Assembly: GCF_004010195.1 (NCBI RefSeq)
Contig: NC_057751.1
Span: 8,609,023-8,673,022, forward strand
Origin: Chiloscyllium plagiosum
Lineage: Eukaryota
Direction of reading: 5' to 3'
DNA length: 64,000 bases
Part shown: piece by piece, positions 5,565 to 59,310 of the stretch
How the letters are laid out: each line of letters begins with the position of its first letter
Position numbering within the stretch: the stretch's first letter is position 1
Notes under the pieces: generated by a model
The model's database searches: none
The model's input: only the letters and a program-made list of their open reading frames with translations
Told to the model about the DNA's origin: nothing
Made by a program: the position numbers and the translations under genes

Positions 5565-5950
5565 CTTGAAGAAGTTTTCCTCCTCTCTCTACAAGAATCT
5601 CAGGGAGTCCCTCTCCCACTGCAACTCCCAGGTCATTTCCTCTGCCCTGAAGCTCTTCCGACCTGTCTAGCTCCTTTTTCACCTATCCACTCCACCCTCT
5701 CCTCCCTGACCTATCACCTTCATCTCCTCCCCCACTCACCTATTGTACTCTATGCTACTTTCTCCCCACCCCCACCCTCCTCTAGCTTATCTCTCCATGC
5801 TTCAGGCTCTCTGCCTTTATTCCTGATGAAGGGCTTTTGCCCGAAACGTCGATTTTGCTGCTCGTCAGATGCTGCCTGAATAGCTGTGCTCTTCCAGCAC
5901 CACTGATCCAGAATCTGGTTTCCAGCATCTGCAGTCATTGTTTTTACCTC
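5555..5950 (+). mobile_element. Penelope-like element 3' terminal fragment with hammerhead motif
   Basis: Pyrimidine-rich body, then ttcCTGATGAagggcttttgcccGAAAcgtcga and the shared tail gatgctgcctga...ttccagca...ccagcatctgcagtc. Confidence 0.75.
5823..5850 (+). ncRNA. Minimal type I hammerhead ribozyme motif
   Basis: CUGAUGA-A-GGGC(UUUU)GCCC-GAAA-C-GUC, with palindromic ACGU helix III and 2-bp helix I (UC/GA). Confidence 0.7.
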
Positions 5951-6935
5951 ACTGAGAATGATCCATGGGGAACGGTGGGACCAGGCTTTTACAGAAAGGG
6001 ATGCTCAACACAAGAGAAAGAGGTGGGAATTCTGGGCAAACATCCTGGCAGTGTTTTACCCCACATTTACAGAAAAACATGTGACAGAAAAGGAGTGGAG
6101 ACAGAGAGGCAAGCAGAGATTGCAAGGAGAGAGAGGGGTATTGGTCACAAGCAACATAGTGGTTTGGGGTGCGTGGAAGGTGGGGGATATCTTGGTTGGT
6201 TATGGAGCACGAGGAGTGGGGAGCATTCAATCATTGGCTGTGGTTCAATTTGATCTTCATGGAACTACCAGTAGCTGAGCTGTGGGAGAGGGCAAGTTAC
6301 TCCTCTCCGTCCACATGCAATGCTCTGAAGGCAATTAACGTCCATGAGGTTTAAACTGAAGACAATGAGTTTGAAGTAGGTTGTACCATGGGTTTGAAAT
6401 TACAAATTCATGTAATTGATACAGATTTGTAAATAGTTGAAGCTCAAGCGCTGATGGCTGCAACACTACTGCACAGTTGAATTCTGAAAATCATGTGATC
6501 GCAGTTCTTCAGCCGGTCCTCCATCTGATACATTGACTCCAATCCCACCAACCCCATTGTTGTCTAACACTCTTTTGTGCGCAACCTTAGTACATGCCTT
6601 CTGAAAATCCAAATTAATAGCATCCATCAGTGGGGCTGTCATGGTGCAGTGGTAAGGTCCCTGGCTTTGATCCAGGTGGACTGAGTTCAAATCCCACCTG
6701 CTCCAGAGGGGTGGAATAACAGATTAAAAAGAAGGTGTCTCGCATCCAACGGTTCCTCAGTTTCGATCCAGCTGGCTACAGTCTATTATTCAGAGACTGC
6801 CTTGTAAATTCCAATATTTTCACTTCTTAACCTCCTCTTTCCCAGTGAGATCACATTCATTTCATATAAAAGCTCATCAACATCCAACTCCTGCATCCTG
6901 CCCAGTTGCTCTCTTTCGTCTGAACAGTTGCAGTT

Positions 6936-7546
6936 ATGACAATGCTACTCCTTTAACGAGGTTATATTGTCCTTGGTTTTTTTTTCAGGCAGTCGTAAAA
7001 GACACAGACTCTGAAAAGTCTAAGTTGAAGGGCTTTAGGGCCAATTTGATAGTAGCTAACAGATAACGCCTCAGGGAAAAAGCTTTTAAGTTTTTGAAAA
7101 ACATTTGTACAATGAAAGGGGAGTGGCCAGTTCTCCCAGTTCAGCTCTACTCTGGTTTGGTTTGGTTTTTAGCAGTAGTGTTGTGAAGTTGATGAACCCA
7201 AGAGAAGCAGGTCTATGCTGACCATCTCTCTCTGCCTTCTCTCCTGTAAGACTGTGTTTGATTTTACCTTTTGTGCCAAGGATTGTTTATGGGGATTGTT
7301 GCAAGTATTTGCAATCATTAAATTGGGATAACCTATTGGGTTTTCGGATAGGTTATTCTGTTCTCTTTAGTTTGTGTTTCATTCAGTAATCTTATAAATA
7401 AATTCTGTTTTGTTTAAAACTACATGGTTTGACCAGCTGCATCCCTCCTGGAATATCCACATTAAACCTGCTTAAAACAACTCGCAAAGTTAGAGTCCAG
7501 GCTACTTTCTTGTATTGATTTGAGGGGTCTGGTCTAATCCATAACA
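6936..7546 (+). mobile_element. Solo-LTR-like repeat (family A)
   Basis: ~610 bp, (T)ATGAC...AATAAA...GGTCTGGTCTAATCCATAACA. Homologous to 36420-37067, 34743-35100, 37752-38397, 44282-44922 and 27490-28112. Confidence 0.55.
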
Positions 7547-7917
7547 TGACCTTTTTCAGTTTCTGGAACAAGCTTCCATTTCTAAAGATTTGCATTTCTC
7601 AACCCTATATCTCTCCTACACCAATCTTTGTCAAGTTTTATCATCCATCGTGTGTTACCATTCCTTTTTCAGTCTTCCAACATCATGGTTTCTCCACATT
7701 AAATTCGACCCAATAGAGACTTATCAAGCCTGTTACCTATTTCCGAGACCATTCTCTGGGTAAGGGTTCCCAAATTACTGCAGTCCCAAACAGGGGATCC
7801 TGGGATTGTCATACTCTCAGATGAAGAACACTTTGTTAATTCACCCAACATCTCAGATGGTTGCAGGAGAATTAACCTCAAAAGCATAAAAATCAAAAGA
7901 ACCGAGGATATTATCAA

Positions 7918-8022
7918 TCAGAAACAAAGACAGAAGGTGCTGGAAAAGCTCAGCAGGTCTGGTAGCACCCATGAAGAGAAGTCAAAATTACCATTTTGGG
8001 TGCAGTGACCCTTCCTCAGAAC
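7918..8022 (-). mobile_element. Penelope-derived short element with degraded hammerhead motif
   Basis: Minus strand reads gttCTGAGGAagggtcactgcacccAAAAtggt...ccagacctgctgagcttttccagca. Confidence 0.55.
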
Positions 8023-8386
8023 CTTAAAAGCATCCCTTTCCTTGTGGATTTCTTTCTCCCAGACCAGAGTAATTTAGTTGTAAAAGGAGCTCTTTACCAG
8101 GATTTCTTGAGTTAATGCAAGACTGAGTTTGTTAACCACTAAACATGAGCAGAAATAGGAATGCAACACATACACCCAGTTCAGAAATTGAGGGGTGACT
8201 CAAAAATGTATTTTTTAAAATACGGATAGATCTCCAAATTCCTGAAAGAGTAGATGATGGACCATTGAGTTATATTGGGAGAATAAATGTTGTAGGCGAG
8301 CAGTAGATTTTGAAATACTTGCTTCAAAGGTCTGCAAAAATTCCTTTGTCCTGTTTAGTTCCAACATGAGCTGGCTTACAGCACTC

Positions 8387-8421
<35 letters not shown>

Positions 8422-11250: not shown

Positions 11251-12871
11251 TGAGATATCAACAGAAAGGGCTGCCAGAACTGAGCAGGTCTGGCAGAATC
11301 TGTGGAGAGAGAAGCAGAGTTAACATAACAGAGTTCATTGATTCCACTTTGAAACTCAGCATCCACAGTATTTTGCTTACAGTTGAGTTTCTTGGGTGCT
11401 GATGAAGCAGCACCCATCTAGATATTTGAAGAGGGCTCTGTGACAATCGTGACTGGTACCCTGTACATGATGGACAGGCTTTGAGCAGACATGGGGGCAA
11501 AGTATCCCCTTCAACAGCAGGGGACACAAATGAAGCAAATTAGGAACTGGGAACATGAACTGAGAAACTGAACCCTATTTTGTCACCCAAAGGGAAGGTC
11601 ATTGAAACCCTGGTGTCCACAGGTTAAAGTTGCAACAAGAAAATATTTTCATCAATCCCTCCTCACTACAAGAGTGCCACAACCATAGACACAACCGTTA
11701 TGTCGTCTGATTGGTGCTCCTTGAAGTACTGTGTACTTAATGTTCGATAAAACACTGAAAATTCAAGAAATTCTCAGCATCTTAAAAGGTTGCTTGCTTA
11801 CTCCAAATAAACAGCCCGACATGTTCAGTGTCTCCAGCATTTCTCATGTTGCTTTCACATTTCTACAGTAGCAGCTTTTCATTTTAAGTTCAGAATTAAG
11901 TTGACCATCAAGTAGAATCTGACAATGAGGGGCATTTCTTGGCTGTTCAGGTCAGCCTCATGCAACAAGAAATCATTGTCAGGATCGTATATTCGTCTGC
12001 AACTTGGCCGGGTTACACGTTCTGAAGACTTGACTGCCTCACAATACCAAGCAGTTTAAAAACGAGCAGCCACCAATAGTGAAGGATTTGCCTCAGACAG
12101 CTTCAAGATGAAATAATAAGAGGAGTTGATGCTTGGAGTTCATCACAGCTCAGTTGAAACTATCAGGATCAACTCATTTAAAGGCTTCATCAGATACAAT
12201 CCAGAAACATTCCTGTTTGATTGTCGCTATGCTATCCGAGCTGGTATTCCTCCCCAAACCATCACTGCCGACGAGATCCATTAACAACTTCTTCATTTCA
12301 TCACCTGTTTCTGGTGATACGTGCCGCAAAGAGCTGTTACACAAATGCTCGTATATTTCACTTTTCTCAGCTGCGTTCTGATCATAAATTCTACCTTGCG
12401 GACATGGTCCGGACCATTTTGTTCAACGCTCACTTTTGGTTGCAACCGTCCTCGCAAAGACAATACATCAGCTCAATCTTTTCCTTCTGCAGCAAAGGGT
12501 GGAGAGAGATTGTCATGAGAAATAAGTGAGTCTGAGCTGATATTTCAGAACAGCGTCAAACGCCACCAAGCAGCTGAGCCGAACCGATCAGACGCACATT
12601 TCAGGAAAGCTTTGTTCAGTAATTTTGCCCTCAGCAATTCACAGAGAGCCTGTGAATTACTTTGGATTCAATTGCCTGCAATTTTCTCCTTGAACTGTAG
12701 GCCAACACGGCTCGAAACATTATTCAATCAACTCAGTGCGCACACTTCTGTTGGGCATCCTTTGTCCTGAAAATGTGTCTCCCAAGGAAGATTCCACATG
12801 GGACAGCAAAACAAGTTTCATGATCTCATCTTAAAAGCAATCCGCTTACTTTATGCCACCATGATCTTTCG

Positions 12872-18100: not shown

Positions 18101-18393
18101 ACGATCCTTCAAACTGGTTGCTTAAGAAAGTGTACATTGCTTGCCCTGTGCGCTGACATTTTAAAAGGCACATTTCCCCTTTGCTGTGAAGCAGTTGGTG
18201 GCAACAACTTGCCACGCAACAAGTTTCAAAACCCATCTGTGCAAGGGTAGCATCGCTCACAAAAAATTCACCTTCCGCAACAACTCAAAGAGAAGGATGA
18301 AAAAACTACATTTGCAAAATATAACTGCAAAATAAATCATTTTAAAGGAGCTGATCTTAACCAAGAGTCAAAAGCATCTAAAAAAATTTCAAG

Positions 18394-18602
18394 GAGAAAG
18401 TGAGGTCTGCAGATGCTGGAGATCAGAGATGGAAATGTGTTGCTGGAAAAGCGCAGCAGGTCAGGCAGCATCTCGGGAACAGGAGAATCAACGTTTCGGG
18501 CATTAGCCTTCCTGAAGAAGGGCTAATGCCCGAAACGTCGATTCTCCTGTTCCCTAGATGCTGCCTGACCTGCTGCGCTTTTCCAGCAACACATTTCCAT
18601 CT
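18394..18602. mobile_element. Palindromic Penelope-derived insertion with hammerhead motif and TSD
   Basis: Inverted arms 18427-18508 and 18521-18602 (2 mismatches), flanked by the direct repeat (catct)aaaaaaatttcaag at 18375-18393 and 18598-18616. Confidence 0.85.
18512..18539 (+). ncRNA. Minimal hammerhead ribozyme motif
   Basis: CUGAAGA-A-GGGC(UAAU)GCCC-GAAA-C-GUC. Confidence 0.7.
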
Positions 18603-19396
18603 AAAAAAATTTCAAGCCAAGTCTCACCTGTCAACACTGGCAGGTGTTGCAATATTTGAAAATCAGTGAATTCCACCTCAACTAATGCTCTGCTTTCAAC
18701 AGCAAGTTCTTTTTCTGCAATGTTATTTTTGCAGCGATTTCATATCTGTCTTCCGAACAGTCATTGCAGCTTGAAGGGTCATTACCAAGGTGAATTACTT
18801 TGAGATAATTACATGTTACAATAACCTCAATGAACTTGCAATTATAGCATCTGTTCAACCATCTCCAACTTCACCACATCATTATGAACAATGCCTACTG
18901 CCATCTCTGAAGGTTGACCAACATCAACTACTGTTGAAACCTGAGTATCCTCCTGGCTGAACTCTCACCCTTCACCATCTGTTATCTCAAACATCATCCT
19001 GTACCTAGTTCTTTACTTCCACCCAACTCTGCTGTGCTGACTGAACAACACTGGTTCCCAGTCCTTCGACATCTCCATTTTAAAACTCCATGCTTGCATT
19101 TAGTCCCTTCCACGGTGTTGCTCCTGTCATCTTTACCTGCCCACATAGAGCCCCTTACAACTCTTTTTTCCAGCTTCCTGTTCATCCTCCCTTTCTTTAG
19201 CCAAGAAGACCCCACCCAAGAGAATTCCCATCCACCCATCCTTGCCCCTCCACAGTCTCCCTCTCCTCTGTGAATTAAAATCCCCGTCTTTGGTTGAGCT
19301 ATTGGTCATGTCACAGAATATTTCTCAGTTCTGTGGCCTCATTTTCAGCCATTTTTGTATCATGATATTTATGATATCTTTGTATCATAAAATCAT

Positions 19397-21080
19397 CTTA
19401 GAATCCCTACAGTGTGACAGCAAGCCATTTGGCCCATTGAGTCCACACTAACCCCCTAAAGAGCTTCCCAGCAGACCCACCCCCGACCCTATCCCTATAA
19501 TACTACATTTTCCACGGCTAAGTCTACTCGAGAAAGTGCAAAACTTGACCTACTCTTGGGTAATAAGGTTGGGCAGGTGACTGAGGTGTTAGTGGGGGAG
19601 CACTTTGGGGCCAGCGACCATAATTCTATTAGTTTTAAAATAGTGATGGAAAAGGAGTGACCAGATCTAAAAGTTGAAGTCCTAAATTGGAGAAAGGCCA
19701 ATTTTGACGGTATTAGGTAAGAACTTTCGAAAGCTGATTGGAGGCAGATGTTCACAGGTAAAGGGACGGCTGGAAAATAGGAAGCCTTCTGAAATGAGAC
19801 AACAAGAATCCAGAGAAAGTATATTCCTGTCAGGGTAAAAGGGAAGGCTGGTGAGTAAAGAAATTGAGGGTTTGGTTAAGAAAAAGAAGGAAGCATATGT
19901 CAGGTATAGACAGGATAGATTGAGTGAATCCTTAGAAGAGTATAAAGAAAGTAGGAGTATACTTAAGAGGGAAATCAGGAGAATCCAAAGGGTTTTTACA
20001 AATATATTAAGGACAAAAGGGTAAATAGGGACAGAATAGGGCCCCTCAAAGATCAGCAAGGCGGCCTTTGTGTGGAGCCACAGAAAATGGGGGAAGATAC
20101 TAAGTGAATATTTTGCATCAGTATTTACTGTGGAAAAGGATATGGAAGACCTTGGAGTGCAGGTTTATAGCTTCTTGAAAGTGGAGGCACAGGTAGATAG
20201 GATAGTGAAGAAGGCGTTTGGTATGCTTTCTTTTATTGGTCAGAGTATTGAATACAGGAGTTGAGAGGTCATGTTGCAGCTGTACAAGACATTGGTTAGG
20301 CCACTGTTGGCATATTGCGTGCAATTCTGGTCTCCTTCCTATCAGAAAGATGTTGTGAAACTTGAAAGGGTTTAGAAAAGATTTACAAGGATGTTGCCAG
20401 GGTTGGAGGATCTGAGCTCCAGGGAGAGGCTGAACAGGCTGGGGCTGTTTTCCCTGGAGCATCGGAGGCTGAGGGGTGACCTTATAGAGGTTTACAAAAT
20501 TATGAGGGGCATGGATAGGATAAATAGACAAAGTCTTTTCCCTGGGTCGGGGAGTCCAGAACTAGAGGGCATAAGTTTAGGGTGAGACGGGAAAGATATA
20601 AAAGAGACCACAGGGGCAACCTTTTCATGCAGAGGGCGGTACGTGTATGGAATGAGCTGCCAGAGGATGTGATGGAGGCTGGTACAATTGCAACATTTAA
20701 GAAGCATTTGGATGGGTATATGAATAGGAAGGGTTTGGAGGGATATGGGCCGAGTGCTGGCAGGTGGGACTAGATTGGTTGGGATATCTGGTCAGCATGG
20801 ACGGGTTGGACCGAAGGGTCTGTTTCCATGCTGTACATCTCTATGACTCTAATTCCCCGAGCCTGCAAATCCCTGGAGACTGTGGCAATTTCCCACGACC
20901 AATCCAGCTAACCTGCACGTACTTGGACTGTGGAGGAAACTGGAGCACCGAGAGGAAACCCACACAGACACAGGAAGAACGTGCAAACTCCACACAGACC
21001 GTCAATCGAGGCTGGAATCAAACCCTGGTCCCTGGTGCTGTGAGGCAGCAGTGCTAACCACTGAGGCATTGTGCCACCCC
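19397..21080 (-). mobile_element. HE1-like SINE split by a CR1 insertion (pieces 19397-19522 and 20850-21080)
   Basis: SINE tail half ends ...tttccacggctaa; it resumes ctaattccccgagcctgca after the CR1 and ends in the gtgctaaccactgag head complement. Confidence 0.75.
19523..20850 (+). mobile_element. CR1 LINE with large internal deletions (endonuclease end joined to RT C-terminus and 3' UTR)
   Basis: LDLLLGNKVGQVTEVLVGEHFGASDHN (APE SDH motif), ILSEYFASVFT, then a jump to LGVQVYSFLKV...RLNRLGLFSLEHRRLRGD; ends ctctatgactcta. Confidence 0.9.
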
Positions 21081-23642: not shown

Positions 23643-25199
23643 CGCAGCATTTGCACAAATTGCTGAATTCTTCTCACTAGAAATCTGTCAAAGAGGTTTC
23701 ATCAGATTATATTAAATGTCTCAAGTCGAGAAATACTTAAGTCAGCAACTCAGTGAGGCACAGGGTCTACCTTTGCAGAGTTAAGATCAGGAAAAATAGG
23801 AAATGGTGTCAGCCATTTAGCCCTTTAAGTCTACTCTGTCAGTGGATTTACCTCTGGTACACCTCCATCCTTCAAGACACAATAAACTCACCCAGCACTC
23901 ATAATCCCATCTCACAATGGAAGGGTGATCTTGGATTGGCTGGAATTTGGGTTTAGAAACTCAGAAAATATCTCATTCGAAATGCAGACTCAAGACTATT
24001 CCATGCCACCATATCCACGTCTCCTGGGAATTCGTATTGCCAAGAATGTCAAAGGCACAATATGGTATTGGTGTGAAGATACGCTGGTTAGAAGGCACAT
24101 TGCAGCTTTTACAGACATCAGTCCATCTAACCATGTCATTCTGACCACCATCCCCCCCCTCGTTCTACCCCAGTGGGTGTTCCATGCCTTCTCGTTTCCT
24201 CACAACCCCTCTTTATCTTCTGCAGCCATTCATACATACCATGTTAGGACAGAACCACTTAGCAGCATTTGCAAGTATTTGTAATTGATTTGAAAAACAG
24301 AAGCCTTGAACAACCTATTGGAGCTATTTCTGAAACATGTCAGCATTTGCTGCCGTGCACTGGAGAAAAATATCCAGACCCAGAGAAATAAAGTTCAGTT
24401 CCAAAAGTGGTCAGTGAGTTGTGAAAACAAATATTGCTTCAGAAACCAATTCAAAGAAAGATCAAGCTGAATCTTATGGCAAGTTGTGTTGAGTTTGATG
24501 GAACGATTCTCACTGCGAGGCCAGGTCAGTTTTCCTGCTGACCTCAACAAAAACACTGCACTAATTGTCATTTGAGTCCTCACAGTGACAGTCATGAACC
24601 ATTTCCACCCCATCTTCCCACATTCTGTTCCCAGAGCAGCACATCACTCATTTGATATCCCAGAATTGGCCAGGATCCCTTGCCACCTTCCCACCTTAAA
24701 AGGCCCATGGCTGTGCAGCTGGACAAGCGTTGTCAGTCTAGAGATGGCCAGCACAGATCCTGACATTTGCACTGGACATGGTGTATGGGTCAAACTGTTG
24801 TCCTGCTCTGCAGATGGGATCCTGATGGACAGGTTAGTGCAGAGAGACTATGTCCTCTCCCACGGCAGCAGACCATGGCAGCCTGTTACCAAGTTCCCAC
24901 CCAGGTTAGAGGAGGAGGGCCCAGCACTTCAAGTAGAAGGCCCATGACCTTCTCCACTCTGCCCAAGTACCACCATTTTCTCTCCAGTACCTCACACTCA
25001 CACTCTCTCTCCAAGTTACCATCCTCCTAAAAAGGTTCATGCTTCACCATGCTCACAACTACACTACACTCTCTCACTCTCACTCTCACTCTCACCCTCA
25101 CCCACTCCCAAACTGCAACACTCAACATGGTCTACTCACTCGCTTAAGAAACCTCCCAATGACTGAGAGCTGGGCCACCACTTTCGTCAGGAATGTTCT

Positions 25200-25350
25200 T
25201 CTTCCTGAAGAAGGGCTCTTCATCCTGAAGAAGGGCTCATGCCCGAAACGTCGATTCTCCTGCTCCTTGGATGCTGCTTGACCTGCTGCGCTTTTCCAGC
25301 AACACATTTTCAGTTCTGATCTCCAGCATCTGCAGTTCTCACTTTCTCCA
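25200..25350 (+). mobile_element. Penelope-derived short element with hammerhead motif (core 25225-25252) and stuttered 5' end
   Basis: cttcctgaagaagggctc-ttca-tcCTGAAGAagggctcatgcccGAAAcgtc...gatctccagcatctgcagttctcactttctc. Confidence 0.8.
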
Positions 25351-25399
25351 CCACTTTCATCCCCCTGACCCCTCCATGTGTTTCCAGCGACATCCTGGT

Positions 25400-25615
25400 A
25401 AATCTGAAACAAAAACAGAAATTGCTGGAAAAGCTCAGCAGGTCTGGCAGCACCTGTGTGGAGAAATCATTGTTAACATTTCAGATAGAGTGATCCTTCC
25501 TCAGTAAGTGACCCTGGTTAATCCTGATTTCTCTTCACAGATGTTGCCAGATCTGCTGAGCTTTTCCAGCAATTTCTGTTTTTGTTTCTCAGTGACAGCA
25601 TCCACAGTTCTTTTT
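25400..25615. mobile_element. Older palindromic Penelope-derived insertion
   Basis: gaaacaaaaacagaaattgctggaaaagctcagcaggtctggcagca is inverted to tgttgccagatctgctgagcttttccagcaatttctgtttttgtttc. The centre holds a degraded CTGAGGA core on the minus strand. Confidence 0.7.
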
Positions 25616-25949
25616 ATCCTGAAAAATCTCTTGGTTTGTGTGGGACTTTTGCTGAGAGGGATTTTCCGATTTCCCAGTCACATGTCCTCAGTACTGCTGA
25701 TGACTACACCCCTCCCAGGATCACAAGAGAAGTAAGTGTGGTCCTTAATTTGGACTGGCATTTTTGTGCTGCACTGAGAAAGTAATACATTCCCAGAACA
25801 CATTTTCAAATCATCTGCCTTCTCAGGTAAATATAAAAGACTCCATGAATCCTACTCTTAAAAAAACAGCTGGGGAGAGCTGTCAGAAAACTCTTGATCA
25901 ATATTTATCCCTCAATCAGCATCACTAAACATGGATTATCTGCCATTAC

Positions 25950-28112: not shown

Positions 28113-28151
28113 AAGAGATCATTTCCAAGAAAGCAGTCACTGAAGTCGGCA

Positions 28152-28280
28152 ATAGTGAGAACTGCAGATGCTGGAAACCAGAGTTTAGCTTAGTGTGGTG
28201 CTGGAGAAGCCCAGCAGGTCAGGCAGCATCCGAGGAGCAGGAAAATTAACATTTCGGGCAAAAGCCCGACATCAGGAATA
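28152..28280 (-). mobile_element. Penelope-derived short element with mutated hammerhead motif
   Basis: Minus strand reads attcCTGATGtcgggcttttgcccGAAAtgtt...ctcggatgctgcctgacctgctg. Confidence 0.7.
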
Positions 28281-28347
28281 GCTGAAATTAAGTGTTGAGC
28301 AGGCTCCCTCAGTGTAAATTGATGAGGTTTTCATAAATGTGAACTTA

Positions 28348-29492: not shown

Positions 29493-29960
29493 TGAGTTAA
29501 AAATCACACAACACCAGGTTGTAGTCCAACAGGTACATTTGGAAGCACTAGCTTTCGGAACGCTGCTCCTTCATCAGGTGGTTGTGGACTATAAGAGCTT
29601 AAGACCCAGAATTTACAGCAAAGGTTTACAGTGTGATGCAACTCAAATGATATGTTGAGAAAGACCTGGATTATTTGTTAAGTCTCTCATCTTTTAGAAT
29701 GACCATGTTGGTTTCAGTTCTTTCATATGTAAATCCCAGAACCTTTTTTAAAGTTACATTCTCAAGTGAACTTTAGCAATAGCTGTCATGTCAGTTCAGA
29801 TAGTGCATTAAAGGTGTGAGGTTAAAGTCTGTCTGTCTTTGCCTCAATGTTCAGTCTGATTTTATTTCTAAAAGAGGGATTTACAGAATCTTACATGGAT
29901 TCATGCAGTTTTTGAGCAAAATAAAATGTAATTCTGCAAGTATAAATTCATCCCACAACA
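29493..29960 (-). mobile_element. Penelope-like non-autonomous element (second subfamily)
   Basis: Terminal region carries a distinct hammerhead motif at 29546-29580 and runs into a CA-rich minisatellite. Confidence 0.6.
29546..29580 (-). ncRNA. Minimal hammerhead ribozyme motif (second subfamily)
   Basis: Minus strand reads cac-CUGAUGA-A-GGAGC(AGC)GUUCC-GAAA-G-CUA-gug: 3-bp helix I, 5-bp helix II, palindromic AGCU helix III. Confidence 0.7.
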
Positions 29961-30988: not shown

Positions 30989-31069
30989 GTGCTGCCTGAC
31001 CTGCTGTACTTTTGCAGCGGCCAACAACATAAGCAGCAAATGATATTCCGATTCAGGAGTTCCACATCA

Positions 31070-43074: not shown

Positions 43075-43340
43075 TCATAGAATCAAAGATTCCATACAGT
43101 GTGGAAGCAGGCCATTCTGTCCTTTGAGTCCATACCCTCCCTCCGAAGAGCATCCTAACGAGACCAATTCCCCCCCCTGAAGAAGGGCTTATGCCCGAAA
43201 CGTCGATTCTCCTGTTCCCTGGATGCTGCCTGACCTGCTGCGCTTTTCCAGCAACACATTTCCACCCCCCCCCCCCCCCCCACCCTATCCCTGTAAACCT
43301 ATATTTCCATGGCCAATCCACCTAACCTGCACATCTTTGG
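43075..43340 (-). mobile_element. HE1-like SINE 3' half interrupted by a hammerhead-bearing insertion
   Basis: SINE tail 43075-43170; it resumes caccctatccctgtaaacc...cacctaacctgcacatctttgg after 43265. Confidence 0.75.
43176..43264 (+). mobile_element. Penelope-derived mini-insertion with hammerhead motif (core 43177-43204)
   Basis: cCTGAAGAagggcttatgcccGAAAcgtcgattctcctgttccctggatgctgcc...acacatttcca, flanked by poly-C on both sides. Confidence 0.8.
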
Positions 43341-44922: not shown

Positions 44923-46244
44923 ATAGTCAAGAATAACCTAAAAATGAAAGCATCATCACTATACTAGTTGTGAAGCCAGCTGATCCAAGACTGAAGCAGA
45001 GAATGGCATGTTTCAACATTTGGCCATAAATGATTAACAATTTGATTTTGCTTGCTATCTGGTCATTCACCATGAAGGCTTCTTTTCCCAAGTTATTGAG
45101 CTTTCTCCCATCTGTTAAACAGGTTCCATCAACCACAAATTGCTCTTTTTCCCTCCTGTGACTATACAATATAATGAACATTCCATATTTTTCCTAAATA
45201 TTTTCTCTGTGGGTTTGATTGGTAACGTATTTTCCCAACTGTGACATTTACCTCAAAGCCACATAAGGATCCGACATACAGAAATTCTGACTAAATGTCC
45301 ATTTATTTATTGTATCCACAGAGTGAAAAACTGGAGTTGTGCTGTACAGTCACATCAGACTCAATGTTAATTCATTCTATCTCTCCACAGATACTGCCAG
45401 ACCTGCTGAGAATCTCCAACATATTCTGCAAGAAATTCTGTATTCTTGCCACAATTGGCTCAACCCCCATAAATTCTGGAGTGAGAGAATTTGGGCCGAC
45501 ATATTGATCAGTGGTCTGTGTCGCATGAGAAAAATCCAAGTTGTGCATCATAGCTTTCTGCCGACTCTGATAATTCATTTCTAAAGGGCAATTATTAGAT
45601 AAGGCACAGTGATTCTGGAGAACGAAGTGGAGCAACAGAGGGATCTTAACCTTCTGAATATATTTTAACAATCAAGGCACATAACTGCGCCAGAAAATAA
45701 GATGAACGTTTAATTTCATGGATTACTGACTAAAACATCATCAGTAACATGCAATCTAAGGTCCCTGAAGGAAAGCAAAATGAAGGAATCCATCAACCAG
45801 AGAAGACAATACTCATTCCCTCAATGTGTCCATTGTACGTAAGTCACATCATTGACATTGTAAGATGCTCTCATTCAGAGTTTCAAGTATCTTGAAGTAG
45901 TTCAGGCTGCTGTGCAAAATATTTTTTCACTGGCAACATGGCGATGTAATATACTTGTGCCCAAGGTGGTTTTATGCTTCCTGCAAGAGTGCGCACACCT
46001 CAGCTGCGTCTCTTGTTAGGCAGATTGCCGTTTTCCTTATTCAGAGTTTCCGAGTGCACAGATTTGTAAGAAAAGCATCAATTTGCAACATATGTACCCT
46101 CTAACTGGAGGGGGTGGGGCGGAATGAATGATGGAAGGGGGGCAACAGGTCAGGCAAGGCAATTGCTCACTTAATATTTGATGTGTGACTGAGATATCAG
46201 TTTAAACATTATCTTCAAGCTCTTGTTCAGTAGAACAAAGTGCA

Positions 46245-47045
46245 GTTACAGAGATGTATAGCACAGAAATAGACCCTTCAGCCCATCTTGTCCACGCCGA
46301 TTAGATATCCGAAATTAATCTACTCCCATTTGCCGGCACTTGACCAATATCCCTCTAAACCCTTCCTATTCATATACCCGCCCAGATGCCTATTAAAATG
46401 TTGTAATTGTACCAACCTCCACCACTTCCTCTGGCAGTTCAATTCATACACATACCACCCTCTGTGTGAAAAGGCTAACCCTTAGGTCCATTTTAAATCT
46501 TTCTCCTCTCACCTTAAACTATGCCCCATAATTTTGGACTCCGCTACTCCGGGGAAAAGACCTTGTCCACTTACCCTATCCAAGCCCTTCACGATCTTAT
46601 AAACTTCGAGAAGGTCACCCGTCAGCCTCCGACCATCCAGGGAAAACAGTCCTAGCCTATTCAACCTCTCCCTATAGCTCAAACCCTCCAAACTTGGCAA
46701 GATTAGATTAGATTACTTACAATGTGGAAACAGGTCCTTTGGCCCAACAAGTCCACACTGACCCACAGAAGCGCAACCTACCCAGACCCATTCCCTTACA
46801 TTTACCCCTTCATCTAACACTACGGGCAATTTAGCATGGCCAATTCACCTAACCTGCACATTTTTGGACTGTGGGAGGAAACCGGAACACCCGGAGGAAA
46901 CCCATGCAGTCGCCCGAGGCGGGAATTGAACCCGGGTCTCTGGCACTGTGAGGCAGCAGTGCTAACCACTGTGTCACCGTGCCACCCAAATCCTTGTAAA
47001 TCTTTTCTGAACCCTTTCAAGTTTCGCAACAACTTTTCTATAGCA
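46245..47045 (-). mobile_element. CR1 LINE 3' fragment interrupted by a SINE
   Basis: LEGLSYRERLNRLGLFSLDGRRLTGD. The CR1 breaks at ...cttggcaa (46700) and resumes aatccttgtaaatcttttctgaacc (~46989). Confidence 0.85.
46701..46987 (-). mobile_element. HE1-like SINE (young subfamily, small internal deletion)
   Basis: (gatta)n tail to ...caccgtgccaccc; lacks ~30 nt of body compared with 47161-47471. Confidence 0.88.
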
Positions 47046-47160
47046 GTGTATAATACTCATGAATACTCATGTAAAATTAACGACACATCTTATTGGCCAG
47101 GATACTTCAAAAAGAACATTGTGAATGTCAGTTTGTTCCGCTTGTCGGGGAGTGTTTTTT

Positions 47161-47471
47161 AGATTAGATTAGATTACTTTACAGTGTGGAAACAGGCCCT
47201 TCGGCCCAACAAGTCCACACACGACCTGCCGAAGCACAACCCACCCATACATTTACCTCTTACCTAACACTACGGACAATTTAGCATGGCCAAGTCACCT
47301 GACCTGCACATCTTTGGACTGTGGGAGGAAACCGGAGCACCCGGAGGAAACCAACGCAGACACGGGGAGATTGTGCAAACTCCACACAGTCAGTCGCCTG
47401 AGGCGGGAATTGTACCCGGGTCTCTGGCGCTGTGAGGCAGCAGTGCTAACCACTGTGCCACCGTGCCACCC
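47161..47471 (-). mobile_element. HE1-like SINE, young full-length copy
   Basis: Near-identical to 28348-28663. Confidence 0.9.
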
Positions 47472-47559
47472 ACCAAGTGTGTTCAAGATCCTGTGACACA
47501 AAGCAAAGAGGATCAGGATAATTCGAGTCAATGTTGAACCTCAAACAAATCACAAAGGA

Positions 47560-50024: not shown

Positions 50025-50330
50025 AACAGGGTGGGGCAAATCCAAACCTAGAGAGTAGAGGTTTAAGGTGAGAGGAGAAAGATTTAAAAAGGAACCGAGG
50101 GGCAACTTTTTCACTCAGCAGTTTGTGTGTGAAGGGAATGAGCTGCCAGAGAAAGTGTTGGAGGTTGGTACAATTACAACATTTAAAAGGCATCTGGATG
50201 GGTATATGAGTAGGAAGAGTTTAGAGGGACATGGGCCAAATGCTAGCAAATGGGATCAGGCCAGATTGTCTTGTCTGGTCAGCAAGAACGAGTTGGACCA
50301 AAGGGTCTGTTTCCATGCTGTGTGATTCTT
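50025..50330 (+). mobile_element. CR1 LINE 3' end (nested)
   Basis: RGERFKKEPRGNFFTQ...FKRHLDGYM plus 3' UTR. Confidence 0.85.
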
Positions 50331-50371
50331 CTAAGTATTTAGATGGGCACTTGATACACCAGGAGGCAAGT

Positions 50372-51622
50372 GCTTGGAAATCATGTCTCACAAACTTGAT
50401 GGAGTTTTTTGAAGAAGTAACAAAGAGGATTGATGAGGGCAGAGCGGTAGATGTGATCTATATGGACTTCAGTAAGGCGTTCGACAAGGTTCCCCATGGG
50501 AGACTGATAAGCAAAGTTAGATATCATGGAATACAGGGAGAACTAGCCATTTGGATACAGAACTGGCTCAAAGGTAGAAGACAGAGGGTGGTGGTGGAGG
50601 GTTGTTTTTCAGACTGGATGCCTGTGACCAGTGGAGTGCCACAAGGATCGGTGCTGGGTCCACTACTTTTTGTCATTTCCATAAATGATTTGGATGCGAG
50701 CATAAGAGGTATAGTTAGTAAGTTTGCAGATGACACCAAAATTGGAGGTGGAGTGGACAGCAAAGAGGGTTACCTCAGATTACAACAGGATCTGGACCAG
50801 GTGGGCCAATGGGCTAAGAAGTGGCAGATGGAGTTTAATTCAGATAAATGAGAGGTGCTGCATTTTGGGAAAGCAAATCTTAGCAGGACTTATACACTTA
50901 ATGGTAAGGTCCTAGGGAGTGTTGCTGAACAAAGAGAGTGCAGGTTCATAGCTCCTTGAAAGTTGAGTCTCAGGTAGATAGAATAGTGAAGAAGGAGTTT
51001 GGTATGCTTTCGTTTATTGGTCAGAGTATTGAGTACAGGAGTTGGGAGGTCATGTTGCGGCTGTACAGGACATTGGTTTGGCCACTGTTGGAATATTGCG
51101 TGCAATTCTGGTCTCCTTCCTATCAGAAAGATGTTGTGAAACTTGAAAGGGTTCAGAAAAGATTTACAAGGATGTTGCCAGGGCTGGAGGATCTGAGCTA
51201 CAGGGAGAGGCTGATCAGGCTGGAGCTGTTTTCCCTGGAGCAACGGAGGCCTTATAGAGGTTTACAAAATCATGAAGGGCATGGATAGGATAAGTAGACT
51301 AAGCCTTTTCCATGACGTGGGGGAGTCCAGAACTAGAGGGCATAGGTATAGGGTGTGGGGAGAAAGATATAAAAGAGACCTACGGGGCAACTTTTTCACA
51401 CAGAGGGTGGTACATGTATGGAATGAGCCGCCAGAGGAAGTGGTGGAGGCTGGTACAATTGCAACATTTAAGAGGCATTTGGATGGGTATATGAATAGGA
51501 AGGGTTTGGTGGAATTTGGGCCGGGTGCTGGCAGGTGGGAAGAGATTGGGTTGGGATATCTGGTCGGATGGACAGGTTGGATGGAAGGGTCTATTTCCAT
51601 GCTGTATATCTCTGTGGCTCTA
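50372..51622 (+). mobile_element. CR1 LINE RT domain to 3' end (relatively young)
   Basis: KSCLTNLMEFFEEVT...YMDFSKAFDKVPH...SGVPQGSVLGPLLF...KFADDTKIGG, with a few stops and frameshifts. Confidence 0.95.
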
Positions 51623-51669
51623 TGCTGGAAAATGGAGTGAGAATTGAGATGTGCTCCTGTATGCTGACC

Positions 51670-53540
51670 AGCGATGGGGCTCAGTCACTGCACTGAACAA
51701 GGAGAGTTATCGGTTCAGAAAAGGTAACCTCTCTCTCTCCCAAATCAGAGGTCACCTTTCCTGGGGTTTTCTCGAAAAAGCAGTAGTTAGTTTGCATATC
51801 TGCATGCTGACGGCTCGGCACAGGCGGATCGGAGCGAGAAACCAAACATCGAAATCGATGAAGAAAGCTCAACGGGTCTGACAGCAATTGCCGAGTGTGA
51901 AAGCAGAGTCTTGGGGTCCAGTGATGCTCTGTCACAACACTACTCTGCACAGAAGCTGCCGGAGCTGCTGAATTTTCACAACAATTGCTGGGTTTTTTTT
52001 TTCAAGTTTCTGATTTCCAGCACCGGCAGTTCTTCAGGGGATTTTATGTCGGGGAGAACAGAGAGAGTCTGCAAGGTTTGGCAGGATTTACGGCCCTATG
52101 TTACTCTCTGGCCCGAGAAACAAGTGAAGCAGTTTACAATGTCGGGTCCGGCTTCAGACCTGGACTGGGCGAGATTTAACTCCGAAACCAAATCGCGGAA
52201 AGGATCTTTCAGCAACACTTGGTTCCAAAAAGACGCTCAAATGTTCACAGCTCCTGGCCAGAACCTCCAGCCGGTTTCTGTTCGCCCTCTGGTCGGGAAT
52301 AAGATCATTTTTTTTTTCAAAATCCCCACGATCCGCTCCCTGGTGAAGATATCCCACTCTCTCCCGTCCAGCTCAGGAAAGGCTCATGATTCCCTTAAGC
52401 CAGACACGGGGAATGTGAATGTGGAGCAACAGTAAAATTGGGTGAAGGGGAGGGGGGGTTGCTGCTGGCGGAGGGTGGGGAGGGGGGGGTGACTTGAGAA
52501 GTTGCTCCAACAGAGACAGAGGAGGGCAGGGAAAGGGAGGGAAGAGGAGACGAGAGGGGAGGAGAGAGCAGAGGAGACGAGGAGAGGGACGGGGGGGGGG
52601 GTCGGGGAGGAGAGACTGCGCTCGGACATGGGGGTCCTCCCGGAGAACAGGAGCGGCTCGGTGCTGGCGCTGAACGGTTCTGCTCGGTCCCCTCCCAGCC
52701 CGAGCCGGGCCATCGCCCTGGGTCTGACGCTGGGCTCCTTCATCCTGTTCGCCCTGCTGGGCAATGTGCTGGTGGTCCTGTCGGTGGTCTGCCACCGGCC
52801 CCTGCAGACGGTCACCAACTACTTCACGGTGAACCTGGCGGTCGCGGACCTGCTGCTGAGCTGCAGCGTGTTGCCCCTGTCCGCCTGGCTCGAGGTGCAG
52901 GGCCAGTGGCCGCTCGGCCGGCTCCTCTGTGATATCTGGGCGGCCCTGGACGTCCTCTGCTCCACCGCCTCCATCCTCAGCCTGTGCGTCATCTCCATCG
53001 AGCGGTACATCGGGGTGAGTTACCCGCTGCGACACCCGACCTTGGTGACCCAGGGGAGGGCTCTCTTCACCCTCCTGGGAGTCTGGAGCCTGGCCCTGGT
53101 CATCTCGGTGGGCCCCCTGATGGGCTGGAAGGAGCCGCCGCCCCCTGACCACACCGTGTGCCAAGTGACCGAGGAGCCCGGCTACGTGCTCTTCTCAGCC
53201 CTGGGCTCCTTCTACGCGCCGCTGGCCGTCATCCTGGTGATGTACTGCCGGGTCTACATGGTGGCCAGGCGGGAAACCAGGAGCCTGGAGGAGGGCAGGA
53301 AGAGGGAGACGGGGGGCCGGGTAACGCTGCGCATCCACCGGCCGGAGAGGAGGGCGGACGGGCTGGACCAGGGTCAGGGTCAGGGTCAGCCCGGTGGCCG
53401 GGGCTCCCAGCTGAAGACTCAGTTCTCAGTCCTGCTCTTCAAGTTCACCAAGCAGAAGAAAGCGGCCAAGACCCTGGGCATCGTGGTCGGGGGTTTCATT
53501 CTCTGCTGGCTCCCGTTTTTCGTGGTCCTGCCCTTGGGTA
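51670..53540. promoter_or_regulatory. CpG island covering the promoter/5' UTR and first coding exon of the adrenoceptor
   Basis: Sharp rise in CpG and GC content relative to CpG-depleted flanks; non-repetitive; directly upstream of and across the GPCR exon. Confidence 0.7.
52628..53537 (+). CDS. ADRA1A-like: Alpha-1 adrenergic receptor (ADRA1A-like), first coding exon (303 codons + 1 nt; TM1-TM6)
   Basis: gacATGG Kozak context with an upstream in-frame TGA at 52490. N-glycosylation sequons NRS and NGS. Motifs [28 protein letters not shown] (D3.32), [51 protein letters not shown] and CWLPFF. Phase-1 donor G|gtaaga at 53537/53538 after TM6, the conserved alpha-1 adrenoceptor intron position. 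Family is certain; subtype is less so. Confidence 0.93.
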
Positions 53541-53644
53541 AGAAACCATTCCATTGCACTCTGACCTTCCAATGTTTCACTTGTGACAATGGTGCGGGAA
53601 AAGTTGCCTCTCTCGGAGTCTTGGACTTTGCCAGGGTTGGTGGG

Positions 53645-54214: not shown

Positions 54215-54477
54215 ATCAAAGGTTAAGATAATCAGACAGTTAAATAGGGAACATTTTTCCTAGGTGGTGATGGCGAGCATGAGAGGACATTGCTTTCAAT
54301 GGAAGGGTGGTAGATACCGGACACGTCAGAGGTAGTTTCTTTACTCAGAATAGTAGAGGCTTGGAATGCATTGCCTGCAACAGACTCGCCAACATGAAGG
54401 GCGTTTAAATAGTCATTGGATAAACCTATGGATGAAAATGGAATAGTGGAGCAGATATAGGCTTCAGATTATGTTGC
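54215..54477 (+). mobile_element. Degraded CR1 3' fragment
   Basis: acatttttcctagg...gtcagaggtagtttctttactcaga...tggaatgcattgcctgca. Confidence 0.6.
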
Positions 54478-54690
54478 GAAAGAGAAAATGAGGTCTGCAG
54501 ATGCTGGAGATCAGAGATGGAAATGTGTTGCTGGAAAAGCGCAGCAGGTCAGGCAGCATCTAGGGAACAGGAGAATTGACGTTTCTGGCATTAGCCCTTC
54601 TTCAGGAGGGCTAATGCCCGAAACGTCGATTCTCCTGTTCCCTAGATGCTGCCTGACCTGCTGCGCTTTTCCAGCAACACATTTCCATCT
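54478..54690. mobile_element. Palindromic Penelope-derived insertion with hammerhead motif and TSD
   Basis: Near-identical to 18394-18602. Flanked by the direct repeat tcagattatgttgc (54464-54477, 54690-54703). Hammerhead core on the minus strand at 54578-54605, with one helix II mismatch. Confidence 0.85.
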
Positions 54691-54879
54691 CAGATTATGT
54701 TGCACTGACCTGTAGAACCAGAGAGCTGATAATAGATAAACCTCTGAAATGCAAATATTCAATTAGACTGCCTCTTCTACCTTCTGAGGCACAATTTCAA
54801 AGTTCCTCAATCCTCAAAAAACAAAATCTCTTCATCTCGATCCCCAAAGGACTTTTTTAAAAAAATTAGGAAATGCTGT

Positions 54880-57039: not shown

Positions 57040-57995
57040 TCAAAGGGTTAAAATTCAAGAACAGAGATGTACTGTTGAGGCTGCATGATACTCTGGCCAG
57101 GCGTCTTTTGGAATATTTAAAGAAGTTCTGGGACCACATCTATCGGGGGATGGGCTGCTCTTTGGGAGGATCCAGAGGCAGGTCGTGGGAGTGCTGTAAA
57201 AAGGACTTGGACAGGTTAGCAGCATGGGCAAAGAAGTGGCAAATGGAATACAATTTGCAAAAGTGTGAGGCCATGCACTGTAGTAGGATGAAGAGAGGCA
57301 TAGACCACTTTAGAAACAGGGAAAGGCTTCAGAAATCTAAAGGACAAAGGGAATTGTGAGTCCCAGTTCAGGATTCTCTGAAGGTTAACATGCAGATTCA
57401 GGTAGCAGATCAGAAGGCATAAGCAATGTTAGCTGGAGGACTAGAATATAACAGCAGAGATGTTTTTCTAAGGCTGTACAAGGCTCTGGTCAGGCCGCAA
57501 TTGGAACATTCTGAGAAAGTTTGGACCCTGGTCTATGGAAGGATGTGCTGGAGTTGGAGGAGGTCCAGAGTACCCCACGGATGAATAGCTTGTCACATGA
57601 GGAGCAGTTGAGGACTCTGGGTCTATGCTGGATGCAACTTAGAAGGATGAGGAGGGATCTCATTGAAACTTACAGAATACTGAAGCACGTGAATATACTG
57701 TAAGTGTCAAAGATCCTTCCATTATTAGGAGAGGACAGCCTCAGCATGATTCAATGACCTTGTGCGACTGGGGGAGGAGGAATTTCTTCAGCCAAAGGGT
57801 GGTGAATCTGTGGAACTCATTGCCGCAGAGATCTGTGGAGGCCTAGTCATCGAGCATATTTAAGACAGAGATAGACAGGTTCTCAACCAGAAAGGGAATC
57901 AAGTGTGATAAGGAGAAGGAAGGAGAATGGCGTTGAGAAATGTGTCAGCCATGTTCAAATGAAGGAGAAGACTTGCTTCTATAGCATATGGTCTA
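57040..57995 (+). mobile_element. CR1 LINE fragments
   Basis: KNRDVLLRL...LEY; KDLDRLAAWAKKWQMEYN; RRMRRDLIETYRIL; 3' UTR. Confidence 0.85.
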
Positions 57996-59211
57996 AGTTG
58001 AAAACACAAGATTGGTGATGATCAGTTATAATTTGCTCACAGCTATTCTTGGTGTTTCTGCTCGGAACAAAGTTTTGCAGCAATGTTTTAAAAATTGAAG
58101 AAGCAAAAATCACCAGACCCAGTGCATTGGCAAGGATTTGGTCCCTTTTAAACAGTTACTTGGACTGAAGGGAAAACAGGAGCCTTTCAAACAGGAAGGT
58201 CACAAGGGTGATGAGGTTTCTCAAAGAGAAAGCACTATGAACCTTACTGGAAATGAAGAGTTAAGAACCACAGGAGACTGTCCAGAAGAGAACACAGCCT
58301 GTCTGGAAACACTCATGCTGTTCCTATGGTATCATTGAGAACTGTGCCCAGTCACATATCATGAGTGTTTTCGGTGTCCATTTCGGTGTGCTACAAAGCA
58401 GCTGCATCATTTGGATCAAGCCACATTTCACAATTGTCCTTTTAGTTCTGCTTTGGAAAGACTAAAGAACTAAAAGGGATCAGAATATTCCTGTTAAGGC
58501 ATAAGAGTGTGTTACAGCTTAAACCTCTGAACTTGAACAATCATGGAAGTACATGCAAGATCCACACTGGCTTACAGCAGAGTTTTGTCTCTGGAACTGA
58601 ACAGTTGTCAACAACAACCTGTAACTCCTTGTGTCAAGGTTTTCAATCATTTCTTTCCCAAGTTTGTAATTTCATGTACTATCTTCCAGCTCTCTGTACA
58701 GAGGATCAGGAGGAGAGAAACAGGGTGCTTTCCCTCAGGTAGGTTTCAGTGTGACAAGGACACTGCAGGCATTCCCTCTCCATGTACTTCAAAAGACAAA
58801 ACGTGAAATGGATTTTTTCTGGAAAACGAAATACCTGTAACTCAACTGTTGGTCAGTCTCAGAACTTTCCAACTGGACAACTGATGTTGTCAAAACATAG
58901 ATTCTGTGAACAGACACAGCATGAACAATTGAAAGTTCTCCTTCTCCTCAAGAATGAAACAAGACAAAATATTCTTCCTCATATTGTTTCTCCTCCTATA
59001 CTGTACAATACTGTCAAAAAAAACCAACCTGATGAGGAAATGTGCCGAATTAATAAAGGCAAAGAGACATGATAATGACTGGTTATTCTCAGCATCATCT
59101 AGTAGTGTCCTCAACTCATCCATTTACTTATTTTCCATTCAGATTAAGAGCAGGCTCCCACATCCAAGTTTTACAATGGGACAGAGATCAAGTAGACTTT
59201 AAGTAGAGCGC

Positions 59212-59310
59212 CATTCCTGATGAAGGGCATTTGCCCGAAATGTCGATTTTCCTGCTCCTCGGATGTTGCCTGACTGCTGTGCTTTTCCAGCACCACTCTA
59301 ATCTAAACTC
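59212..59310 (+). mobile_element. Penelope-derived mini-insertion with hammerhead motif (core 59217-59244) and imperfect TSD
   Basis: attcCTGATGAagggcatttgcccGAAAtgtcga; flanks aagtagagcgc (59201-59211) and aagtatagcgc (59311-59321). Confidence 0.75.

What the first reader, a model, noticed from the sequence alone, without database searches (positions are those of the whole stretch)
5823..59244. Dispersed family of minimal hammerhead-ribozyme motifs carried by short Penelope-derived elements
Seen: the motif CTGA(T/A)GA-A-GGGC(N4)GCCC-GAAA(C/T)GTC occurs at 5823-5850, 18512-18539, 25225-25252, 43177-43204, 59217-59244 (+) and 54578-54605 (-). Decayed versions lie at ~28250-28276, 2335-2365, 3351-3381, 7990-8020 and ~25475-25505. 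The helix II loop varies freely (UUUU, UAAU, UCAU, UUAU, AUUU) while the stem and catalytic core are kept. Established: Penelope-like elements carry minimal type I hammerheads whose palindromic helix III permits dimeric cleavage. Inference: at roughly a dozen motifs in 64 kb, this genome may hold a very large population of non-autonomous, ribozyme-bearing retroelements.
Basis: partly seen in the sequence, partly recalled or inferred. Interest (0 to 1): 0.72.

Follow-up and report, generated by a model that had tools for sequence, protein, structure and literature searches.

The report
Shark Penelope stubs with minimal hammerheads
The short repeats are the ribozyme-bearing end pieces of a Penelope-like jumping gene in a carpet shark, a kind already described in other animals; the one telling detail is that most copies start just in front of the ribozyme and not at its cut site.

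Summary
The motif is real: 5 of the 6 named sites match exactly and the sixth has one helix II mismatch; shuffles give none. The window holds 10 independent insertions of this module that keep the core, 4 decayed remnants and one hammerhead of an unrelated family. They are 86-132-base end pieces (hammerhead, pseudo-LTR end, optional tail of about 35 bases) of a Penelope-like element. In public DNA contigs the tail runs on into an ORF start whose relatives include a complete RT + GIY-YIG protein. Four insertions have clear target duplications; two are palindromes with one tailed and one tail-less arm. Nine of 10 begin 0-5 bases upstream of CUGA, and read depth steps up about tenfold there; no pile-up was seen at the GUC cut site. 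Best reading: run-off reverse transcripts of uncleaved RNA that starts at the ribozyme's edge. Only 4 copies keep core, helix II and the palindrome, and helix I is 1-3 bp, so activity is unproven. Minimal hammerheads in truncated Penelope copies are published; this is a new member of a known kind. The scan noted the same thing many times on other pieces of this genome.

The parts
5550..5658 (+). Copy A, 5' part: start of the Penelope ORF (ATG at 5557, 34 codons), joined by an internal deletion to the 3' UTR
   Evidence: 97% identical to the N-terminus of P0001; tblastn hits from P0001, P0002, P0003, P0005, P0044; contig joint from tail end 5949 over 31 letters to 5550
5659..5818 (+). Copy A: pyrimidine-rich stretch upstream of the hammerhead (80% C+T), read as the 3' UTR / upstream part of the pseudo-LTR
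   Evidence: repeated in the genome at about a tenth of the read depth of the hammerhead
5819..5854 (+). Copy A: minimal type I hammerhead (core 5823-5850; predicted cut after 5850). 5819 is the common 5' boundary of short copies
   Evidence: loose ends pile before 5819
5855..5949 (+). Copy A: downstream stem-loop region and tail
18375..18616 (.). Insertion B: palindrome; tailed arm on - (about 18394-18508), tail-less arm on + (about 18509-18597, core 18512-18539); 19-base target duplication 18375-18393 / 18598-18616
25175..25361 (+). Insertion C: tailed copy (core 25225-25252) preceded by a short inverted piece and a 20-base repeat of the hammerhead's 5' end; target duplication 25175-25188 / 25348-25361 (13 of 14)
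   Evidence: the only named copy that passes the published descriptor
25400..25617 (.). Insertion D: older-subfamily palindrome; decayed core 25475-25504 on -
   Evidence: no target duplication found
28150..28280 (-). Insertion E: tailed copy with a broken core (A9 changed)
43176..43264 (+). Insertion F: tail-less copy inside a C run of another repeat; core, helix II and palindrome intact, helix I 1 bp
54464..54703 (.). Insertion G: palindrome; tailed arm on - (core 54578-54605), tail-less arm on + that lacks CUGA; 14-base target duplication 54464-54477 / 54690-54703
59201..59321 (+). Insertion H: tail-less copy (core 59217-59244, palindrome lost by C to T); possible target duplication 59201-59211 / 59311-59321 (10 of 11; weak on its own)
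2238..2368 (-). Insertion I: older-subfamily tailed copy with a 5-bp helix II; duplicated at about 3254-3384 by a local tandem duplication
7874..8033 (-). Insertion J: older-subfamily tailed copy, decayed core 7990-8019; target duplication 7874-7887 / 8020-8033 (13 of 14)
11251..11332 (-). Remnant K of the same module, core not recognisable
45363..45428 (+). Remnant L
51943..52034 (+). Remnant M
30989..31019 (+). Remnant N (only the conserved downstream block)
29549..29577 (-). Copy O: sequence-unrelated minimal hammerhead (helix I 3 bp, helix II 5 bp, AGCU palindrome)
   Evidence: passes the published descriptor, shuffles gave 0 in 100; single copy in the window, no target duplication found
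3..149 (-). Scrap of a Penelope ORF (region just before the DKG motif), running off the window start
   Evidence: tblastn hits from P0012, P0020, P0025, P0031, P0060

Best explanation
The repeats are short insertion products of an endonuclease-bearing Penelope-like element (probably Neptune-type) in a carpet shark. In the parent the order is hammerhead, stem-loop, tail, 31-base linker, ORF start, ORF, pyrimidine-rich 3' UTR, hammerhead again (the two junctions are shown; the full ORF between them is inferred). The element's protein nicks both target strands 11-19 bases apart and primes reverse transcription at one of two sites about 35 bases apart, downstream of the hammerhead (shown in vitro for a lizard element; inferred here from two classes of 3' end). 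Most cDNAs run only 90-130 bases and stop about 4 bases upstream of CUGA. I infer that this is the 5' end of the uncleaved RNA, most likely its transcription start (about 55% for this step). When both target ends are primed, one at each site, the two cDNAs meet at the hammerhead and join by 1-3 bases of microhomology, giving a palindrome with one tailed and one tail-less arm (inferred). The hammerhead is carried along uncut; it belongs to the parent, where it would need a dimer and probably the protein. Most genomic copies are dead and decaying.
For: Two classes of 3' end: 86-94 bases from C3 (B+, G+, F, H) and 123-132 (B-, G-, C, J, A) (9 arms measured), matching the 30-40-base tail and the two RT start sites of PMC11167929 and PMC8557442. 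Target duplications of 19/19, 14/14, 13/14 and 13/14 at B, G, C, J; only 2 of 293 random position pairs scored as high as the weakest of these. Joint 5949 to 5550 in DNA contigs of run X1. ORF start 97% identical to P0001; P0001's N-terminus hits P0025 (E 5.7e-7), which has DKG, RT motifs, a CX4CxxC linker and GIY-YIG (PF01541, E 6e-6). 9 of 10 core-bearing insertions have an arm that begins 0-5 bases before CUGA. Loose ends pile before 5819: 365 of 1946 laid reads in X21, 1036 + 335 contigs at 5819/5820 in X1, 127 + 48 + 23 in X19; X21 depth is 89-109 upstream and 1068-1318 in the core, and shows no step across 5850. The loose letters agree poorly (0.31-0.46), as expected of unrelated flanks, not of a shared upstream exon. 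The centres of B and G differ although the arms are 95-97% identical, and C holds three pieces that all end at the hammerhead's 5' edge.
Against: No complete shark ORF was recovered: two searches with P0001 residues 1-170 found none of 812 residues or more and only P0001 and P0002 at 254-811; the link to RT + GIY-YIG runs through a relative about 29% identical in that region. The contig joint is one listed row (depth 63.5). Part of the step at 5819 may come from sister families with a different upstream sequence (X21's loose-end consensus is C/T-rich, agreement 0.46). 5819 is the A of an initiator-like hexamer, but 3 such sites lie in 5657-5830, so this is weak. No RNA start or end was seen anywhere (table 6: none), and only the best-supported loose ends were listed (848 not shown). 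A, D, E and I have no target duplication and F sits in a C run.
Confidence: 0.75

Rival explanations
1. A self-propagating non-autonomous family: the 125-base unit holds its own start site, internal promoter, protein-binding stem-loop and RT start sites, so short copies are transcribed and re-inserted in trans.
For: Sharp 5' boundary and about tenfold excess of short over long copies. D. virilis Penelope has an internal TATA-less promoter (PMC2377424, passages). B and G belong to one subfamily and are both palindromic.
Against: B and G differ at their centres, so neither was copied whole from a palindromic master. The same subfamily sequence continues upstream into the 3' UTR and downstream into the ORF start. 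No tRNA, 5S or 7SL head overlaps any copy. Reads in X21 lie on both strands in similar numbers, as for read-through of host transcripts.
Confidence: 0.17
2. The copies are stubs of the autonomous element, but the 5' boundary is a reverse-transcription stop or a processing site at the end of the pyrimidine tract in the 3' copy of the module, not the start of the RNA.
For: The boundary sits exactly where an 80% C+T tract ends; about a tenth of reads pass it. The end of the D. virilis intron also maps to the 5' end of helix I (PMC4209133).
Against: A structural block would be expected on the 3' side of the fold, before the enzyme enters it (inference). A splice acceptor would leave a shared upstream exon, and the loose letters are mostly unlike each other.
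Confidence: 0.2
3. Ribozyme self-cleavage defines the inserted unit (retrozyme-like cycle through cut and circularised RNA).
For: Core and helix III palindrome are kept across unrelated families (copy O against A-H); a tail-to-ORF joint is also compatible with a circle.
Against: Copies begin about 31 bases upstream of the cut site and include it; no loose-end pile at 5850/5851 among those listed and no depth step there; no tandem array of the module in the window. In the lizard element uncleaved RNA was the dominant template and no reads ended at the cut site (PMC11167929).
Confidence: 0.05

Closest known systems
Minimal hammerheads (min-HHR) of metazoan Penelope-like elements (Cervera and De la Pena 2014, PMC4209133)
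   Same: CUGAnGA + one extra base, G10.1-C11.1, GAAA-NN-UH with a palindrome and no helix III loop; mostly single motifs in truncated copies; pairs on opposite strands; thousands per genome (about 4,000 in coelacanth, 9,000 in Xenopus tropicalis).
   Different: No shark in the parts read (main-text parts 1-2 of 4; supplement file 2 has no 'shark' or 'Callorhinchus'; file 1 could not be searched). Helix II is 4 bp and helix I only 1-3 contiguous pairs here. The paper's opposite-strand pairs are 100-700 bp apart; here they abut. It does not describe 5' ends clustered at helix I in the parts read.
Insertion structure of EN+ Penelope-like elements (Arkhipova et al. 2013, PMC3846280; Craig et al. 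2021, PMC8557442)
   Same: 5' truncation, adjacent inverted truncated copy, 30-40-base tail at one end only, target duplications of about 8-10 bp, palindromic junctions.
   Different: Here the whole insertion is often only the 90-130-base end module or two such arms; duplications are 11-19 bases; truncation points are clustered.
Poseidon element of Anolis carolinensis in vitro (Frangieh et al. 2024, PMC11167929)
   Same: Two RT start sites that bracket the tail; both target strands cut and extended; uncleaved RNA as template; ribozyme needs the protein.
   Different: There the ORF starts inside helix II; here the ATG lies 38 bases past the tail. The nearest complete relative found has the CX2-5CxxC linker of Neptune/Nematis, which Poseidon lacks.
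Non-LTR retrozymes (Li, Clavereau and Pollet 2026, 10.64898/2026.07.22.740005)
   Same: Non-coding, derived from pseudo-LTRs, type I hammerhead, reported in one chondrichthyan; dispersed monomers are common.
   Different: Defined by head-to-tail tandem units; none here. In that study 1 of 9 tested dimers cleaved.

Membership tests
min-HHR of Penelope-like elements | Core CUGAnGA ... GAAAnnUH around a 3-7-bp helix II, extra base before G10.1-C11.1 | tested here: met
   9 sites in the window meet core and helix II of the published descriptor; shuffles mean 0.17, largest 2
min-HHR of Penelope-like elements | Palindrome at 15.1-16.1 allowing a dimeric helix III | tested here: met
   ACGU in A, B+, C, F, G-; AGCU in O; lost by C to T in E, H, I1, D-, J
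min-HHR of Penelope-like elements | Helix I of at least 3 contiguous pairs (descriptor) | tested here: inconclusive
   Met by C and O only; A, B+, H have 2 pairs then a U-U mismatch (A and H one more pair beyond it), F has 1. The paper's own alignment lists members with 2-bp helix I
min-HHR of Penelope-like elements | Self-cleavage after NUH as a dimer | not testable with these tools
   No molecule ends seen in one single-cell poly(A) run, which is a weak test
EN+ Penelope-like elements | Optional 30-40-base tail at one end | tested here: met
   3' ends at 86-94 and 123-132 bases from C3, 9 arms
EN+ Penelope-like elements | Adjacent inverted, 5'-truncated copy; target duplication | tested here: met
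   B, G, D palindromic; clear duplications at 4 of 10 insertions tested, a weak one at H
EN+ Penelope-like elements | Single ORF with RT and GIY-YIG next to the module | tested here: inconclusive
   ORF start linked to the tail and homologous to the N-terminus of a complete RT + GIY-YIG protein; no complete shark ORF recovered
Neptune clade | CX2-5CxxC motif between RT and endonuclease | tested here: inconclusive
   Present in the distant relative P0025 (definition); the shark element's own linker was not seen
Non-LTR retrozymes | Head-to-tail tandem units each with a hammerhead | tested here: not met
   No tandem array of the module; only a 20-base repeat at 25197-25238
SINE | Head derived from tRNA, 5S or 7SL RNA | tested here: not met
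   No such Rfam match overlaps any copy at E up to 5
Independent non-autonomous family | Short copies give rise to short copies (own subfamily changes, transduced flanks) | not testable with these tools
   No whole genome held

The most novel reading that the evidence does not exclude
The shark Penelope transcript starts at the first base of hammerhead helix I, and the 125-base module holds start site, internal promoter, protein-binding stem-loop and both RT start sites. Solo modules would then be the smallest self-contained substrates of a Penelope enzyme and could re-mobilise as a Penelope counterpart of SINEs, at hundreds of thousands of copies; the palindromes would be direct genomic records of two-ended priming by a dimeric enzyme on two templates.
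Probability: 0.2. Interest if true: 0.6.

Novelty: new member of a known kind. Interest (0 to 1): 0.32.

Why it matters
How Penelope-like elements integrate, and what their hammerhead is for, is still open. These stubs give a large natural record: ends at the ribozyme's 5' edge and not at its cut site argue that uncut RNA is the template in vivo, as found in vitro for the lizard element, and tailed/tail-less palindromes within one target duplication give a testable two-ended priming model. As a catalogue of ribozymes it matters little: the kind is published and most copies are probably inactive.

Tried and rejected
No whole genome is held, so no genome-wide count or subfamily tree. Rfam has no matching family: 10 matches at E up to 5, none a hammerhead, none at gathering score; the miRNA-like hits are the palindromes. 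The downstream 29-letter block found 0 matches in metagenome and viral contigs; P0025 found no locus in metagenome contigs (99 candidates, 0 confirmed) and no solved relative. Searches for a full-length shark ORF failed. No RNA holder was listed by the run search. Run X22 laid 0 reads; X21 is a single-cell poly(A) library of which about 2 in 100 was read, so 'no molecule ends' is weak. Depth in contig runs was not used as a copy number. Folding: z-scores of five tailed copies were -1.47, -0.07, 0.65, -3.10 and 1.24, so the module is not unusually stable; the shared downstream stem has 4 of 23 pairs with a two-sided change in 7 related sequences, suggestive only; cofolding of four copies did not return the dimeric hammerhead fold. 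Excess conservation of core and stem over the downstream part: 2 of 114 against 25 of 306 cells (p 0.014) but 2 of 19 against 15 of 51 columns (p 0.13), so not established. Lunse et al. 2017 is not held; known only through the review PMC6765202 (passages). Rejected: chance, tandem retrozyme, tRNA-type SINE, splice-acceptor boundary, cleavage-defined ends.
Full report
Setting. The window is animal DNA with 1290 N, LINE-type RT fragments and a 7TM receptor exon. A 34-codon frame at 5557-5658 is 97% identical to a Chiloscyllium punctatum protein, and its next relatives are from Hemiscyllium, Stegostoma, Rhincodon and Hypanus, so the source is a carpet shark or close kin. No whole genome is held.

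Observation. BLAST of nine regions against the window and an alignment of 16 arms show that the motifs head one module in several subfamilies. A block downstream of the hammerhead occurs 13 times with up to 3 mismatches, 0 in shuffles. Counting 2335 and 3351 once, since they lie in a tandem duplication, there are 10 insertions that keep the core (A to J), 4 remnants (K to N), and one unrelated hammerhead (O, 29549-29577 minus) found with the published descriptor. That is about one core-bearing insertion per 6 kb of called sequence; one window cannot give a genome count.

Ribozyme anatomy. Core, helix II and the ACGU palindrome are all intact in A, B+, C and F; G- has a stem mismatch; H, E, I, D and J lost the palindrome by C to T; E and J have core changes. 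Helix I is short: 3 pairs in C, 2 in A, B+ and H, 1 in F. Only C and O pass the published descriptor, which asks for 3, though the paper's alignment has members with 2. Within the main families helix II never changes on both sides. Between families it does: the older subfamily has a 5-bp stem, seen only in decayed copies, and O has different helices I, II and III, all paired. In the reads, the only differences inside 5823-5853 among the 40 best-supported rows of 127 are at N7 and in loop II. Excess conservation over the rest of the module is not established. Activity was not testable.

Link to Penelope. Copy A reaches upstream through 160 pyrimidine-rich bases to the 34-codon frame. P0001's first 170 residues define a family of 59 hits; one of them, P0025 (882 aa, unnamed), has DKG, RT motifs, CX4CxxC, and a GIY-YIG domain above Pfam's cut-off, the layout of Neptune/Nematis elements (PMC8557442, passages). 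Pfam's RT model did not hit P0025; the RT call rests on motifs that I recalled. In DNA contigs of run X1 the tail end at 5949 continues over 31 letters into 5550, seven bases before the ATG. So A is an internally deleted near-unit copy, and the module precedes the ORF in the parent. A second ORF scrap lies at 3-149 minus. No full shark ORF was found.

Ends. The 3' ends of 9 arms fall in two groups, 86-94 and 123-132 bases from C3; the difference is the Penelope tail, which corresponds to two RT start sites in vitro (PMC11167929, text parts 1-2 of 4 read). Target duplications are clear at B, G, C and J, weak at H, uninformative at F, absent at A, D, E, I (10 tested; null 2 of 293 at the score of C and J, 27 of 293 at H's). 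Nine of 10 insertions have an arm that starts 0-5 bases before CUGA. Laying four runs on 5480-5990 at 82% likeness gave the same picture beyond the window: loose ends before 5819 in 365 of 1946 reads (X21), 1371 contigs at 5819/5820 (X1) and 198 at 5818-5820 (X19); X21 depth upstream is 7-10% of that in the core; no step at the cut site; X22 laid nothing. These reads are mostly host transcripts running through copies on both strands, so they report genomic structure, not element RNA.

Palindromes. B and G each have a tailed arm and a tail-less arm inside one target duplication. In B the tail-less arm is complete and the tailed arm stops in helix II; in G it is the other way round; junction overlap is 3 and 1 bases. 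They were therefore made separately at insertion. C carries a short inverted piece and a repeated piece, all ending at the hammerhead's 5' edge. Inverted arms with a one-sided tail are published (PMC3846280 and PMC8557442, passages), where self-priming on an antisense template was proposed; two-ended priming fits the tail asymmetry better, but that is inference.

Mechanism. Shown: family, parent layout at two junctions, two 3' ends, clustered 5' ends, duplications, no ends at the cut site among those listed. Inferred: run-off to the RNA's 5' end, that end being a transcription start (initiator-like base at 5819, weak), and two-ended priming. Rivals: a self-propagating short family, an RT stop at the pyrimidine tract, cleavage-defined units.

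Novelty. Minimal hammerheads in truncated Penelope copies, in thousands and sometimes on opposite strands, are published (PMC4209133: text parts 1-2 of 4 and supplement file 2 parts 2-3; file 1 could not be searched). The retrozyme preprint (parts 1-3 of 5; supplements closed) includes one chondrichthyan. I found no paper on clustered 5' ends at helix I or on shark copies in eight searches, in a library that lacks most subscription papers, Lunse et al. 2017 among them. Earlier notes of this scan report the same elements on many other pieces of this genome; I had seen the clustering and the palindromes before reading them, but took from them the reading that the RNA begins there and that the mirror arm is built at insertion, and then tested the second here. 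Verdict: real, new member of a known kind, interest 0.32.

Noticed in passing
window 29549-29577 (-): A sequence-unrelated minimal hammerhead with 3-bp helix I, 5-bp helix II and an AGCU palindrome; single copy here, probably a second Penelope family (not shown to be repeated).
   Followed up: partly
window 3-149 (-): Scrap of a Penelope ORF just before the DKG motif, cut by the window start; the repeat upstream of it (about 160-420) was not identified.
   Followed up: partly
window 5128-5564: Tandem duplication of about 220 bases (96% identical) whose unit ends with the first 15 bases of copy A, so it arose at or after the insertion or the target shared those bases.
   Followed up: partly
window 1996-2802 / 3012-3819: Tandem duplication about 1016 bases apart, 99% identical, with a SINE-like repeat between the copies; recent duplication or assembly artefact.
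   Followed up: no
window 52493-53560 (+): Coding exon of a rhodopsin-family 7TM receptor (PF00001, E 5e-61), by recall alpha-1 adrenergic-like; insertions G and H lie downstream on the same strand, possibly in its intron.
   Followed up: partly
window 504-860, 28345-28664, 33794-34157, 46696-47472 and others: An abundant dispersed repeat family of 300-360 bases with a tRNA-like end, probably a shark SINE (recalled, not tested); insertion F sits inside one copy.
   Followed up: no
window 20118-20830, 35401-36578, 50225-51640 and others: LINE-type RT fragments (PF00078 at 50225-50848), by recall CR1-like.
   Followed up: partly
P0001, P0002: Database proteins named 'uncharacterized' or 'mucin-2-like' in sharks are frameshifted Penelope ORF starts: their N-termini align with a complete RT + GIY-YIG protein.
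   Followed up: partly
window 5837 in run X21: 92 reads share one upstream flank at 97% agreement: one well-expressed transcript carries a copy truncated in loop II.
   Followed up: no
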